Below, in pieces: positions 16,205 through 20,244 of a stretch of DNA of 64,000 nucleotides. The translations under genes were made by a program, and so were the position numbers. The notes beneath the pieces were generated by a model, which made no database searches, had not been told where the DNA came from, and saw nothing but the letters and a program-made list of their open reading frames with translations. Where the stretch lies: assembly GCF_009914755.1 (NCBI RefSeq), contig NC_060932.1; one strand, 5' to 3'. Numbering within the stretch: the stretch's first letter is position 1; every line of letters starts with the position of its first letter. Source of the stretch: the human T2T-CHM13v2.0 reference genome, Homo sapiens.

Positions 16205-16827
16205 TTCCTAGATTGTTTTTCGGCAGATATGTAAACCAGGAGATCTGTGGATATGAATATAATCTGAAATTTGAAAGATGAAAGAAGTGACCAAGCTGAT
16301 TCAGAATTAAAGTCTGTACAAAGACCAAGCCATGCAGAGTAAAAGAGGTAAAAGTGGTAAAAGAGGAAACACCCAGGAGAAAGAGACACATCATGATCCT
16401 TTCCCACTGTTAGCGACTGAATCTAAAGGCATGTTAATGTTAAGCTTTAAAATGGTGTACTTCTGTTGTAAAATTGCAGCTAAGTTCTTTTCAAGGTAGC
16501 AATACCATTCAGGTTGCTCAAATGTTTTGATTGGATTAAAATAAAAACTTTTGGAAACAAATCTATTTACAAAGTCCATGCAATCCTTCAGATGTGTGTA
16601 TTTTTTCTCTCCCTAGCTCGTTCTTTTTCTTTGAAAAGCAGTGCCTTGCAGCTCCTTTTCCTGAGACAGAAAAAAAAAAAAAAATCAATGATCAACAACA
16701 GTCCAGTATTCAAGAACAACCTAGAAATAACAAATCAGTCTGTGTGTGTGACAGAAAAGGAGAGTGTATGTAGTAGGAAAAGCAGCTACCGTTTCAGACT
16801 TTCACAGGGCAGTTACAAGAAAGAGTG

Positions 16828-16931
16828 GGCAGCCAGGCAGAGGCGCTCCTCACTTCCCAGACAGTGGGACGGCCGGGCAGAGGGGCTCCTCACTTCCCAG
16901 ATGGTGCTGGGATCAGGCAGAGACGCTCCTC
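16828..16931 (-). repeat. SVA-type VNTR, about 2.5 units of ~40 bp
   Basis: Repeated 'ggcagagg(c/g)gctcctcacttcccaga', the reverse complement of the SVA VNTR unit TCTGGGAAGTGAGGAGCGCCTCTGCC. Confidence 0.88.
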
Positions 16932-16932
16932 A

Positions 16933-17015
16933 GGTCTCGATCTCTTGACCTCATGATCCGCCTGCCTCGGCCTCCCAAAGTGCTGGGATTACAGGCGTGA
17001 GCCACCGCGCCTGCC
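16933..17015 (-). mobile_element. Alu left-arm 5' fragment within the composite element
   Basis: 'ggtctcgatctcttgacctcatgatccgcctgcctcggcctcccaaagtgctgggattacaggcgtgagccaccgcgcc'. Confidence 0.92.
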
Positions 17016-17960
17016 CTGCCATGTCTTTCTCCTCCCAAGCGGCTGTTTTCATTTCCTGGATTTTGATGTTCTACTTAATACCCCCATGATCTTATCCATG
17101 TTGCCCTGCTGGAGGCTTCTTTCCCTTTGGGAAGTCTGACCCAGCTCCCATCAGTGCCTCAGCAGACAGGCAGTGGGAGGTTAAGCTTGCCTCTGAGACA
17201 GGAATCCTCACGGGGCTGAGGTGTCCGAACATGATGGAGTTGCGAGCAGACAGCATGGATTTCTTTCTTGAGGGGAGCCTCCAGACCACAGAAGTCAGGA
17301 GGTGCCCCAGTGGGGTGCCCGTGTTCTGAGGGAGAAGACACAGCCTTGTAGGGGCGCCATCCCACCTGGCTGGAAAAGAAGGCCTAGGACATCGCAGAGG
17401 GTTGAAGAGGAATTGGGAAGAGCCCAGGGTTCCCGGGGCAGGCACAGGCACAGGAGCCGCAGGGGGGGCCCCGCCAGCTGGGAAGGCCTCACGGACAAGA
17501 TTAGCAGGTTGCCAATGGCGTGGCCTGGACCGCTGGTGGAACCAGGACAAAATATTCTTAGACAAGCACGTTGCCTATGGCGTGGCCGAGACCTGCAGCG
17601 GAACCTAGGGAGGCCAAGGCGGGTGGATCACGAGGTCAGGAGATGGAGACCATCCTGGCTAACACGGTGAAACCCCGTCTCTACTAAAAATACAGAAAAA
17701 TTAGCCAGGGGTGGTGGCGGCGGGCGCCTGCAGTCCCAGCTACTCGGGAGGCTGAGGCAGGAGAATGGCGTGAACCCGGGAGGCGGAACTTGCAGTGAGC
17801 CGAGATCGCGCCACTGTACTCCATCCTAGGTGACAGAGCGAGACTCTGTCTCAAAAAAAAAAAAAAAAAAAAAAAAAAAGCTTAGAAGAGCACGTTGCCT
17901 GTGGCATGGCCGGGACCTGCAGCAGAACCAGGAACAAAATATGCCTAGTGAATTGCCCAT
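16989..17960 (-). pseudogene. NPAP1/UPF0607-like (POM121-related) pseudogene; frameshifted, internally deleted, Alu-interrupted
   Basis: Minus strand reads MGNSLGIF (ATG at 17960; cf. recalled NPAP1 MGNLLSKF), then RLCLLPQNTGTP..SVVWRLPSRKKSMLSARNSIMFGHLSPVRIP / LRGKLNLPLP / CLSAEAL / GQTSQRERSLQQGNMDKIMGVLSRTSKSRK*..QGRRGGSRL*. This matches both ends of recalled UPF0607 proteins; the final stop lies inside the Alu fragment. Confidence 0.85.
17608..17879 (+). mobile_element. AluY, 5'-truncated
   Basis: AluY diagnostics 'gagaccatcctggctaacacggtg' and 'gagaatggcgtgaacccggg'; long A-tail; no clear TSD. Confidence 0.93.
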
Positions 17961-19299
17961 TTTGAGCGAGTTGTGTGCGGAAGAAACTGAGGGTCAGAGG
18001 CGGAGAGGTTACTCCATAGTCACCCACTTCTCTGTGGCCTGCGCGCACTGGGCACCTGGGACATCACGGTGGGGCTGGTGATAGAGCCAGGGTGTGGAGG
18101 AGTGCACAGGAGCCCAGCGAGGAGCGCCTACAAGAGGAGTCAAAGGGCAAACCGCTAGGCCCCTCCACCGGTCCAGCTGGACTCTCTAGCCTCAGGGACG
18201 TCCTGCTCCTGGGGGCAGGTGTGTGATTCTGGATGGGCCCCGCTGTGGGGCTGTGGGGCTGTGAGGGGTGCAGGACTGATCCGCCAGAGCCCTTCCCGCC
18301 TGGTGCCTGGCCCAGGCGCTGACTAGCACCCCATGGCCCTGTCTTGGCTGGCCCTGTCCCCCGGGTTACAGGGCCAGAACCTGCTGGAAGCAGGGCGCAG
18401 GACCAGCCAGATCCCACCAGGCTCCCTCAGGGCCTCTCCAGTGCCTCTGTGCCGCCTGGAGCCAGGCCCGCCTTCTCCGTGGCCGCCCTGGCCTTGAGGG
18501 CCACCAGCCTGGCTGCGCAGGTTTCCAAGTAGAGGACGTGGTGCCCTGACCTGACTGGATGGTGCCCTTTACCACATCCCCTCCTGGCAGGCAGGGTCTC
18601 CACTTCTTTTTACAAATCCGCCTGAGACCATTCCTCAGGTCATTCAGGCAGTCATGGCCCAGCCAGCCTTTGAGCCCATGCTCTGCGATTCCACAGCTGG
18701 CACTCTGGCCTGTGTGCCTCCTGATCACGGATACAGGATGTATTCTTATTTTTTCCTGTAGTCCTGGGGTACTTAGCACCGTGGCATATCTGTAATAAGC
18801 ACATGCACACCTAGAAGGAGGTCTTTACTTCAACATGTAAGTTGACCATGGCCCAATCTGGGCTCCAGTCCTCTACAAAGATGTAGGGCAGGGACTACCA
18901 GTTGTCAGCACAGCACCATCCCACATTGCCCTCCTAATGGTGCCTTTCAGCCCAGATGTTCTTCTTTGTCTGGTGGGAAGGATCCAAGTATGTAAAGATT
19001 ATGTTCTAGATCAGCTTTGGTCTATCCTAAAAGAAATTCACTAGTGGATTATTCCACATAGATAAACGTCAGTTTCTCTAGTCTTCCTGGAATGTGTCTA
19101 GAAAGCAAGTACATTATTTATTTACAAGTTAATAGTGGATCAATGTTTTGGATTAAAATATAACCAACATAATTTGGTCATTGTGAGCATGCCAGCTCTG
19201 TCCACTCTTCACCACACATTATGATACCCTAAATATAACTCTAGATTTTCTTATGCCCAAGAGAAGGACATACCCTTGGGTGTCTGGACTAGTGAAACA

Positions 19300-19388
19300 T
19301 GTATGAAAAAACATTCGGCCACTCTACATCTTTTTATTGGAGAATTGGAAATATCTATATTTAAAGATATTATTAAAAGGCAAGAAGT
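19300..19388 (-). mobile_element. Old L1 ORF2 endonuclease N-terminal fragment inside the composite
   Basis: Minus translation LLIISLNIDISNSPIKRCRVAEC resembles L1 EN ISILTLNVNGLNAPIKRHRLA.W. Confidence 0.7.
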
Positions 19389-20244
19389 TAAAAAAAGAAA
19401 AAGAAAGAGTGCAGAAAACGTGATTGGGGAAAGGTGAGGGAAAGCACCAATTCCACCTAAAATTATGAAAACCCTAGAGTTTGTATTTAGCTGGCTTCCT
19501 CCCACCTTCTTTGTGTGGCCAGCTCTGCCGTCTCCCTCAACTTGCTGACACTGAGCAGATCTATGTGTCTCTTTGCTGTTGCACAGGGACGCAGGATTAG
19601 TCGGTAACAATATCAGAGGCAGCAACAGTGGATGCCTGACTTGGGGTTCATTGAGTATGACTGGCTAAAAGCTAGGGCTTTACAGCAAACAGCAAAACAA
19701 GTCAAACTTCTTGCAGGTAACAAAAGACGTTAGATTTGGAAGTCAAATAGCTGTGATTTCTAATCCAGACTCCCTAGCATGGCCTTAGACAAGTGTCTAA
19801 CTCTTCTTTATCTGTTTTTTTCATCTAGGGGAGGACAAGAAATGAACACTTAGCACAAACATATTATTGTGACAATTACATCAGGTAAGGCATAGAAATG
19901 ACCTAACATGATGGCTTGAACATAGTAGGCACTTATACATGATCTAAGTGGTATTAGGAAAACAGGAGGTGTTCTTTGCTGTACTAATTATTCATATGAG
20001 GATTTACAGCCTGCTAAAGGCAATGGTAGCCTGTGGATTTGTGTGTAACTCTGAGTGATTGACAACATCTGCCTGGAGAATTGGGATGAGAACGATTTTG
20101 AGAAAGGGCTCAGCAAGAAATAATGTGGTGATGGATATGGCTCTCTGTTGTGAGTGAGAAAAGAGAGAATGGGGCCAAATATGCCGTGCATTTACTATTT
20201 CTCAGTAAGCACCAATAGACAAATACAAATAAATAAAAATAATA

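What the first reader, a model, noticed from the sequence alone, without database searches (positions are those of the whole stretch)
16817..19411. LAVA/SVA-like composite retroposon carrying an antisense NPAP1/UPF0607 cassette
Seen: an 11-bp perfect TSD (AAGAAAGAGTG) brackets a 2.6-kb unit ending in ATTAAA plus an A-tail on the + strand. Inside, in order, are an SVA-type VNTR, an Alu left-arm fragment, an NPAP1/UPF0607-like ORF, ~1.3 kb of unassigned DNA and an L1 EN fragment; every recognisable module is antisense to the tail. Established: SVA and gibbon LAVA are L1-mobilised VNTR composites, LAVA has antisense Alu and L1 pieces 3' of a sense VNTR, and UPF0607 sequences are multicopy POM121-related retrocopies. 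Inference: this copy was retroposed from the transcript antisense to the ORF, so it behaves as a 5'-truncated member of a VNTR-composite family rather than as an ordinary retrogene. Repeat annotation would likely split it into unrelated fragments.
Basis: partly seen in the sequence, partly recalled or inferred. Interest (0 to 1): 0.8.

Follow-up and report, generated by a model that had tools for sequence, protein, structure and literature searches.

The report
Old truncated retrocopy, sibling of SPTLC1 pseudogenes
This 2.6-kb insert is a dead, 5'-truncated L1-made copy of an RNA read backwards across an NPAP1-like (UPF0607) gene on chromosome 9, and its nine younger siblings are spliced SPTLC1 pseudogenes, so it is an ordinary retrocopy and not a new SVA/LAVA-like mobile element.

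Summary
An exact 11-bp target-site duplication (TSD), an ATTAAA signal and a short A-tail bracket window 16828-19400. Inside lie 2.7 VNTR units, an Alu 5' remnant, an NPAP1-like N-terminal ORF, NPAP1-upstream homology and an L1 piece. All of these are antisense to the tail.

The human genome holds 12 close relatives. Nine are dispersed copies, each with its own TSD and poly(A). They start with precisely spliced SPTLC1 exons 1-3, joined at an antisense-Alu acceptor to a ~4-kb terminal exon in SPTLC1 intron 3 (chr9:104.27 Mb). That exon holds an inverted SVA2-type VNTR element, the rest of the Alu, the inverted UPF0607 fragment and the L1-borne ATTAAA. Three chr9 relatives are genomic paralogues without a tail.

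On the tree the window copy branches before the split of the chr9:100.01 Mb UPF0607 locus from the SPTLC1-intron duplicate. It therefore most likely came from an antisense RNA of the ancestral locus and is the oldest member.

The full-length siblings have no CT-hexamer 5' end. Their VNTR is inverted. There are only ten copies, in a star-like tree that includes the source. It is a processed retrocopy, not an SVA/LAVA-type composite family. Interest is modest.

The parts
16817..16827 (.). Left target-site duplication, AAGAAAGAGTG
   Evidence: exactly two copies in the window; 0 of 100 shuffles reach two.
16828..16932 (-). 2.7 units of a 40-bp VNTR, inverted relative to the A-tail. This is the 5'-truncation point of the retrocopy. 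The units come from an SVA2-type element in the source locus.
   Evidence: period 40, 2.7 copies. (relatives carry many more units upstream). (618-1222 bp of VNTR in 11 relatives). (free SVA2-type copies carry the units in the opposite orientation relative to their own tails).
16933..17015 (-). 5' remnant (about 83 nt) of an Alu that the SVA2-type insertion split in the source locus.
   Evidence: SRP/Alu match at 16912-17015, minus strand, E 0.0013. (the other Alu part lies beyond the VNTR in full-length copies; about 12-bp duplication at the SVA2 insertion site).
17024..17574 (-). Remnant of the UPF0607/NPAP1-like coding region (N-terminal part). Includes the open frame 17092-17574.
   Evidence: NPAP1 residues 3-117, 42% identity, E 1e-10. 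(collinear with all relatives). (no Pfam family).
17168..17183 (.). Junction of a 654-bp deletion specific to the window copy. These 16 bp align to both edges of the missing segment.
   Evidence: window 17024-17183 matches source 5851-6005 and window 17168-17561 matches source 6659-7052. The same pattern is seen against chr9:100.01 Mb and chr2.
17603..17879 (+). Secondary Alu insertion with an A27 tail, inside a 63-bp tandem-repeat region. It is not part of the original retrocopy.
   Evidence: Metazoa_SRP at 17704-17854 plus strand, E 3.5e-9. (A27). (absent from all 12 relatives at this position).
17880..19305 (-). Homologue of the region upstream of the NPAP1/UPF0607 start codon.
   Evidence: window 18306-18617 and 18655-19268 match chr15:22.41 Mb (NPAP1 locus) at 74% and 78%. 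One search gives the NPAP1 ORF position. One search shows collinearity.
19306..19390 (-). Fragment of an old L1, read by me as the first codons of ORF2. It supplies the poly(A) signal on its antisense strand.
   Evidence: 15 short dispersed matches, 75-80%, both strands. (translation). (L1 ORF1 domains PF02994 and PF17490 on the same strand just beyond the cleavage site in the source; the fragment itself is not scored by Pfam).
19372..19377 (+). ATTAAA polyadenylation signal, 13-18 nt before the cleavage site.
   Evidence: (the motif block is kept in all 13 copies, with single mismatches in two).
19390..19400 (+). Short A-tail (A7GA3).
   Evidence: (genomic paralogues continue with non-A sequence at this point).
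19401..19411 (.). Right target-site duplication, AAGAAAGAGTG

Best explanation
Window 16817-19411 is a single processed retrocopy, dead on arrival, made by the L1 machinery.

The template was a polyadenylated RNA transcribed antisense across a UPF0607 (NPAP1-paralogue) locus on chromosome 9q. That locus had earlier received an Alu, and then an SVA2-type VNTR retroposon inside the Alu. The RNA ended at an ATTAAA signal on the antisense strand of an old L1 that flanks the locus.

Reverse transcription, or the RNA itself, stopped inside the VNTR. Only 2.7 units were therefore copied. Afterwards the copy lost 654 bp and gained an Alu.

It is the oldest of ten retrocopies with this RNA body. A partial duplicate of the locus later landed in intron 3 of SPTLC1. 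There an antisense-Alu 3' splice site turns it into an alternative terminal exon. The resulting chimeric SPTLC1 (exons 1-3) mRNA gave nine full-length retrocopies, at least two of which are annotated as SPTLC1P pseudogenes.

Shown: the L1 hallmarks, the homologies, the splice junctions, the source loci and the tree.
Inferred: which locus and which promoter produced the window copy's RNA, the ages, and the lack of function.
For: (1) TSD, signal and tail.

(2): 12 near-full relatives at 87-88% identity, all reaching the same 3' end.

(3):
- Nine dispersed relatives have poly(A) at or within 9 nt of the same cleavage site. Eight of these nine have clear A-rich TSDs of their own. The chr6:23.7 Mb TSD is degraded, and the chr2 TSD is short and ambiguous.
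- Three chr9 relatives continue into shared non-A flank.

(4): the 274-bp 5' segment of the nine maps to three separate exons at chr9:104.275-104.282 Mb.
- it encodes SPTLC1 residues 1-86 (85 of 86 identical to PDB 6m4n_A, E 8e-52).
- GT donors follow exons 1 and 3, and an AG acceptor follows the T-run of an antisense Alu.
- the 5' ends of the nine fall within about 30 nt upstream of the ATG, templated by exon 1.

(5): the ~100 bp next to the VNTR is a dispersed repeat (154 candidates; 40 scored at 94-100%). Four copies I read are VNTR + unique tail + poly(A) + own TSD. That is SVA2-type, in the opposite orientation to the host RNA.

(6): chr9:100.01 Mb has NPAP1-like coding DNA on both sides of the Alu/VNTR insert. 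The SPTLC1-intron copy shares only part of it. The intron copy is therefore the derived duplicate.

(7): the window copy branches before (chr9:100.01 Mb + the clade of 11), with support 97/90 and 98/93. Root-to-tip lengths are clock-like: 0.064 versus 0.062 and about 0.065.
Against: - The AU test does not cleanly reject placing the window copy with chr9:100.01 Mb (p 0.051) or with the young clade (p 0.050). Its RNA could therefore still have come from the SPTLC1 context.
- The 5' end is missing, so neither promoter nor splicing can be read from this copy.
- No other primate genome could be searched. The empty site and the ages are untested.
- The A-tail is only 11 nt and impure.
- The 'SVA2' label rests on published descriptions (passages of PMC3287187 and PMC4432496). 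It was not compared with a reference consensus.
Confidence: 0.85

Rival explanations
1. One reading: a 5'-truncated member of a self-propagating SVA/LAVA-like VNTR-composite retrotransposon family that carries an antisense UPF0607 cassette.
For: - L1 hallmarks, a VNTR preceded by an antisense Alu piece, and a shared 3' end in ten copies.
- Nine of ten copies are full length.
- VNTR length varies from 618 to 1222 bp between copies.
- No retrocopy holds SPTLC1 exons 1-3 without this terminal exon.
Against: - Full-length copies begin with spliced SPTLC1 exons, not a CT-hexamer or Alu-like domain.
- The VNTR is inverted and still carries the SVA2 element's own unique tail and T-run.
- There are only ten copies.
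- The young clade is a near-polytomy that includes the genomic source. Two copies even retain source sequence beyond the usual cleavage site. All of them therefore derive from the gene, not from each other.
Confidence: 0.06
2. The window copy is also a retrocopy of the SPTLC1 alternative transcript, from the same source as the nine others. Its basal tree position would then be an artefact of faster decay or of gene conversion among the chr9 loci.
For: - Same cleavage site and same RNA body.
- AU p 0.050 for holding the window copy together with the young clade.
Against: - Best trees from two alignments place it outside (chr9:100.01 Mb + young clade), with support 97/90 and 98/93 and clock-like lengths.
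- Like chr9:100.01 Mb, it keeps an extra 63-bp repeat unit that the SPTLC1-intron clade lacks.
Confidence: 0.2
3. A DNA-level (segmental) duplication of a chr9 UPF0607 locus into chr8, with a chance flanking repeat.
For: Three chr9 paralogues did arise this way.
Against: - Homology stops exactly at the cleavage site used by the nine other retrocopies and is followed by an A-run and the TSD.
- The 11-bp repeat is not expected by chance.
Confidence: 0.02

Closest known systems
Processed pseudogenes of SPTLC1 (gene symbols SPTLC1P1-P5)
   Same: - Same RNA body, same ATTAAA and cleavage site, 87-88% identity.
- SPTLC1P2 is reported as the nearest gene, 58 kb from a chr6:23.80 Mb SNP (passage of PMC12026730). 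This fits the chr6:23.72 Mb copy.
- SPTLC1P4 is reported beside THEM4 on chr1 (passages of PMC5780481). THEM4's position on 1q21 is my recollection; on it, SPTLC1P4 fits the chr1:151.2 Mb copy.
   Different: - The window copy holds no SPTLC1 sequence, because it is truncated in the VNTR.
- It is older and probably predates the arrival of the segment in SPTLC1.
- It is not in the window's gene table.
SVA, LAVA, PVA and FVA VNTR-composite retrotransposons
   Same: - Mobilised by L1.
- Contain 39-40-bp VNTR units of SVA2 ancestry.
- Built partly by splicing into Alu-derived sequence. The comparison with MAST2-SVA is from memory.
   Different: - VNTR inverted.
- No CT-hexamer.
- The 5' end is host exons.
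- About ten copies, with no subfamilies.
SVA2 elements (VNTR plus a short unique 3' sequence; described in passages of PMC3287187, PMC4432496 and PMC5174737)
   Same: - The passenger VNTR in the source locus has the unique ~100-bp tail, A-run and an insertion-site duplication.
- Free copies with their own TSDs exist in the genome.
- The 40-bp unit length matches.
   Different: - In the window only 2.7 inverted units survive, without the unique tail.
- The element was carried passively.
NPAP1/UPF0607 retrogene family (Neumann et al. 2014, PMC3942032; abstract and passages read)
   Same: N-terminal coding homology and upstream homology to NPAP1.
   Different: The copy was made from the opposite strand. 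The frame is therefore a passenger without its own promoter context. The passages I read do not discuss the strand of retroposition.

Membership tests
L1-mediated processed retrocopy | Target-site duplication flanking the insert | tested here: met
   11-bp exact repeat; 0 of 100 shuffles reach two copies.
L1-mediated processed retrocopy | Poly(A) tail following a polyadenylation signal at the 3' end | tested here: met
   ATTAAA at 19372-19377, tail at 19390-19400. The nine siblings use the same site.
L1-mediated processed retrocopy | An identifiable source locus that continues beyond the cleavage site without a tail | tested here: met
   chr9:104.27, 100.01 and 94.58 Mb continue into shared L1 sequence.
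L1-mediated processed retrocopy | Introns removed | tested here: inconclusive
   Met in the nine siblings, which have exons 1-3 joined at GT/AG sites. It cannot be read in the window copy, which is truncated within the terminal exon.
SVA/LAVA-type VNTR-composite retrotransposon | CT-rich hexamer repeat plus an Alu-like domain at the 5' end of full-length members | tested here: not met
   Full-length relatives start in the SPTLC1 5' UTR. The single antisense Alu piece is a host Alu used as a splice acceptor.
SVA/LAVA-type VNTR-composite retrotransposon | VNTR in the same orientation as the element's poly(A) tail | tested here: not met
   The units are the reverse complement of those in free SVA2-type copies relative to their tails.
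SVA/LAVA-type VNTR-composite retrotransposon | Amplification from element copies (subfamilies, many copies) | tested here: not met
   Ten retrocopies. The young clade is a near-polytomy that includes the genomic source.
SVA2 | VNTR followed by a short unique 3' sequence, poly(A) and a TSD | tested here: inconclusive
   Met for the passenger element in the source and in full-length siblings. The window keeps only 2.7 units. No reference consensus was available for comparison.
UPF0607/NPAP1 family | Sequence homology to the NPAP1 N-terminus and its upstream region | tested here: met
   42% identity over 125 aligned positions, E 1e-10. 74-78% DNA identity to the NPAP1 locus.

The most novel reading that the evidence does not exclude
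The RNA body shared by all ten copies consists of an inverted SVA2 VNTR, an inverted UPF0607 fragment and an L1-derived 3' end. It may be an unusually good template for L1, a promoter-less 'proto-composite'. It would have been mobilised from two host contexts: first the ancestral UPF0607 locus (the window copy), then SPTLC1 intron 3 (nine full-length copies in a short interval, with no retrocopy holding exons 1-3 without this terminal exon). On this reading it is also the vehicle that scattered UPF0607 open frames over human chromosomes, so that the dispersed 'UPF0607 genes' are antisense passengers of SPTLC1 pseudogenes.
Probability: 0.15. Interest if true: 0.6.

Novelty: new member of a known kind. 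Interest (0 to 1): 0.3.

Why it matters
The finding corrects a tempting misreading. The VNTR, Alu and L1 pieces lie in LAVA-like order here because a host transcript ran through them, not because they form a mobile element.

It also gives a concrete history for the dispersed human UPF0607 copies examined here. They travelled on the antisense strand of one RNA, and most of them sit inside SPTLC1 processed pseudogenes. The one paper on the family that I could read (PMC3942032, abstract and passages) does not say this. My searches found no paper linking SPTLC1, UPF0607 and retroposition.

For annotation, the window copy is an unrecorded relative of the SPTLC1P pseudogenes. Predicted UPF0607 proteins at such loci should be treated with caution.

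Tried and rejected
- Pfam on four frames of the insert: nothing relevant. The only hit was a chance RRM_3 match, E 0.013, below cut-off.
- Pfam on the short L1 piece: no hit.
- I expected the alternative SPTLC1 frame to be 143 aa, from memory of a short isoform. The open frame in three retrocopies is 122 aa, so I do not equate it with any named isoform.
- Supplement of PMC3942032: it lists only protein accessions, no coordinates. One file could not be searched. I could therefore not tie named UPF0607 proteins to these loci.
- Control for retrocopies of the canonical SPTLC1 mRNA:
  - The exon 1-3 query found 13 matches: the nine chimeric copies, the three true exons and one duplicated exon 3.
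  - A PF00155 scan scored only 9 of 54 candidates.
  - Of the seven places read, five are GOT2-like, one GCAT-like and one ACC-synthase-like. None is SPTLC1-like.
  - 5'-truncated canonical retrocopies are therefore not excluded.
- A splicing explanation for the 654-bp gap was considered. I did not check the splice sites. The 16-bp overlap points to deletion between short repeats.
- Segmental duplication of the window copy: rejected.
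Full report
**1. The observation**

The motif AAGAAAGAGTG occurs exactly twice in the window, at 16817-16827 and 19401-19411. None of 100 dinucleotide-preserving shuffles gave two matches.

Between the two copies lie 2,573 bp. 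They end in ATTAAA (19372-19377), the block ...AAGAAGTTA, and a short impure A-run (19390-19400).

The modules inside are:
- 16824-16932: a 40-bp tandem repeat, 2.7 copies.
- 16912-17015: a weak minus-strand SRP/Alu match.
- 17603-17879: a strong plus-strand Alu with an A27 run.
- 17092-17574 (minus strand): an open frame that aligns with residues 3-117 of the 1156-aa NPAP1 frame read from chr15. Identity is 42% and E is 1e-10. Pfam has no family for it.

**2. Relatives in the same genome**

The window is CHM13 chr8:36,580,001-36,644,000, and the assembly could be searched.

Window 17880-19390 found 12 near-full matches at 87-88% identity. They lie on chr1, 2, 6 (two), 8, 9 (four), 10, 13 and 16. 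Weaker matches (74-82%) lie at chr9:99.98, 92.52 and 92.02 Mb and at the NPAP1 locus chr15:22.41 Mb. About 15 short matches hit only the last ~85 bp. The '1.3 kb of unassigned DNA' is therefore the family's counterpart of the region upstream of the NPAP1 start codon.

I fetched about 10 kb around 16 of these places. The 3' ends fall into two classes:
- Three chr9 copies (104.27, 100.01 and 94.58 Mb) run on past ...AAGAAGTTA into the same non-A sequence.
- Nine dispersed copies carry poly(A) at that site, or 4-9 nt further on in two of them. Their flanks are unrelated. Eight of these nine have clear A-rich TSDs of their own. The chr6:23.7 Mb TSD is degraded, and the chr2 TSD is short and ambiguous.

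**3. What the full-length copies are**

All nine extend about 1.9 kb further 5' than the window copy and share a common start.

Their first 274 bp map to three separate pieces on chr9, minus strand: 104,281,872-800, 104,279,051-8,941 and 104,275,323-228. This segment encodes residues 1-86 of serine palmitoyltransferase 1. Identity is 85 of 86 to PDB 6m4n_A, E 8e-52.

The splice signals in the source are as follows:
- Exons 1 and 3 are each followed by GT.
- The next segment of the retrocopies starts right after an AG that follows the long T-run of an antisense Alu, 2.3 kb downstream in intron 3.
- The 5' ends of the nine copies scatter over about 30 nt of the exon-1 leader.

They are therefore processed pseudogenes of an alternative SPTLC1 mRNA: exons 1-3 plus a roughly 3.7-kb terminal exon. 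The open frame is 122 aa in three copies.

Two published gene lists are consistent with this. One reports SPTLC1P2 as the nearest gene, 58 kb from a chr6:23.80 Mb SNP. The other reports SPTLC1P4 beside THEM4 on chr1. THEM4's position on 1q21 is my recollection; on it, these fit the chr6:23.72 Mb and chr1:151.2 Mb copies (passages).

**4. Anatomy of the terminal exon**

Reading along the RNA, the parts are:
1. The 3' two-thirds of an antisense Alu.
2. A T-run and about 100 bp of unique sequence.
3. 618-1222 bp of 40-bp repeats. This length was measured in 11 of the 12 relatives. The chr8:27.29 Mb copy has lost the VNTR and the Alu remnant.
4. The remaining 5' part of the same Alu, with a duplication of about 12 bp at the two junctions.
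5. The inverted UPF0607 fragment.
6. The L1 piece carrying ATTAAA.

The ~100-bp unique sequence is itself a dispersed repeat. The first look gave 154 candidates, and the 40 that were scored are 94-100% identical. I read four copies. Each is a run of VNTR units, then the unique sequence, then poly(A), with its own TSD.

This matches published descriptions of SVA2:
- Dominant units of 40 and 39 bp, and a 'SVA2 3' unique sequence' (PMC4432496, passages).

I had no SVA2 consensus to compare with. The VNTR in this family is thus an inverted passenger SVA2-type element, nested in a host Alu.

Beyond the cleavage site the source carries L1 ORF1 domains on the opposite strand: PF02994 at E 1e-6 and PF17490 at E 7e-6. 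The last ~85 bp of the retrocopies read to me like the first codons of L1 ORF2. Pfam does not score that piece.

**5. Which locus is ancestral, and where the window copy fits**

- chr9:94.58 Mb is a segmental duplicate of the SPTLC1 region. It is 94-95% identical over the whole 10 kb and includes exon 3.
- chr9:100.01 Mb shares with the SPTLC1-intron copy a block that runs from 465 bp upstream of the Alu acceptor to more than 1.2 kb past the cleavage site.
- At chr9:100.01 Mb, NPAP1-like coding DNA continues on both sides of the Alu/VNTR insert and is nearly contiguous in NPAP1 coordinates. The intron copy holds only part of it.
- I therefore infer that chr9:100.01 Mb is the older UPF0607 locus and the SPTLC1-intron segment is a partial duplicate of it.

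I built two maximum-likelihood trees, on 1490 and 2722 columns. Both give:

(92.5 Mb, (99.98 Mb, (window, (100.01 Mb, clade of 11))))

- Support for the two key nodes is 99/96 and 97/90, and 100/100 and 98/93.
- The clade of 11 holds the SPTLC1-intron source, its 94.58 Mb duplicate and the nine retrocopies. It is nearly unresolved, with end branches of 0.013-0.026.
- The window copy's end branch is 0.064, equal to the root-to-tip path of the others.
- AU tests leave the two alternative placements at p 0.051 and 0.050. They are disfavoured but not excluded.
- Like chr9:100.01 Mb, the window copy keeps an extra 63-bp repeat unit that the young clade lacks.

The best reading is that the window copy was made first, from an antisense RNA of the ancestral locus that used the same ATTAAA site. 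The nine SPTLC1-driven copies came much later. Using recalled primate divergences, I guess roughly 30-45 Myr for the window copy and 10-20 Myr for the later nine. This was not tested.

**6. Later changes in the window copy**

- A 654-bp deletion relative to every relative, with a 16-bp overlap at the junction (17168-17183).
- The Alu at 17603-17879, which is absent from all relatives.

**7. Comparison with known kinds**

As a processed retrocopy, it meets the TSD, signal, tail and source-locus criteria. Intron loss is shown only in the siblings.

As an SVA/LAVA-type composite, it fails three defining features that I tested:
- The 5' CT-hexamer and Alu-like domain are absent.
- The VNTR is inverted.
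- There is no copy-to-copy amplification.

Its family assignment is not.

**8. Literature**

- Neumann et al. 2014 (PMC3942032; abstract and passages) place UPF0607 beside NPAP1 as POM121-derived retrogenes. In what I read they do not address the strand of retroposition.
- Searches for UPF0607 found 3 papers.
- A search for SPTLC1 together with retrocopy terms listed no top paper that holds SPTLC1.
- A search for SPTLC1 plus VNTR found 7 unrelated papers.
- A search for SPTLC1P symbols found gene lists only.
- I therefore found no account of this history in print. Papers outside the library were not searched.

**9. Limits**

- No other primate genome was available.
- No expression data were available.
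- No Repbase or Dfam library was available.
- The control for canonical SPTLC1 retrocopies is partial.
The right edge of the chr9 duplication was therefore not mapped.

Noticed in passing
L041 (chr8:27,282,150-27,292,100), oriented 5743-5781 and 7065-5815: This SPTLC1 retrocopy has lost the whole VNTR and the Alu remnant. It keeps an intact 416-codon antisense UPF0607-like frame, the only long intact one my filter found among the copies.
   Followed up: partly
window 17486-17602 and 17880-17948; L038 (chr9:100.01 Mb): A 63-bp minisatellite just upstream of the UPF0607 start codon varies in unit number. My estimates are about 3 units in the window copy, 4-5 at chr9:100.01 Mb and fewer in the SPTLC1-intron clade.
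   Followed up: partly
L040 (chr9:94,575,700-94,585,650): A segmental duplicate of part of SPTLC1 (exon 3, intron 3 and the alternative terminal exon). It is 94-95% identical over at least 10 kb, and its ends were not mapped.
   Followed up: partly
genome-wide, e.g. L047-L050: The ~100-bp unique tail next to the VNTR marks a dispersed SVA2-type family. There were at least 154 candidate sites in CHM13, and the 40 scored are 94-100% identical. The four copies read are strongly 5'-truncated, with 0-3 VNTR units.
   Followed up: partly
L053 (chr12:16,390,968-16,391,735) and L051, L052, L055, L056: Five intronless GOT2-like aminotransferase pseudogene pieces, one of them with a 256-codon open stretch. 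There are also a GCAT-like piece (L054) and an ACC-synthase-like piece (L057). All were seen while running the SPTLC1 control.
   Followed up: no
L038 oriented 3000-3850 and 5610-6484 (chr9:100.01 Mb): The UPF0607 gene at this locus is interrupted by the Alu with its nested SVA2-type element. Coding homology to NPAP1 resumes on the far side. A second, inverted UPF0607 paralogue lies about 36 kb away at chr9:99.98 Mb.
   Followed up: partly
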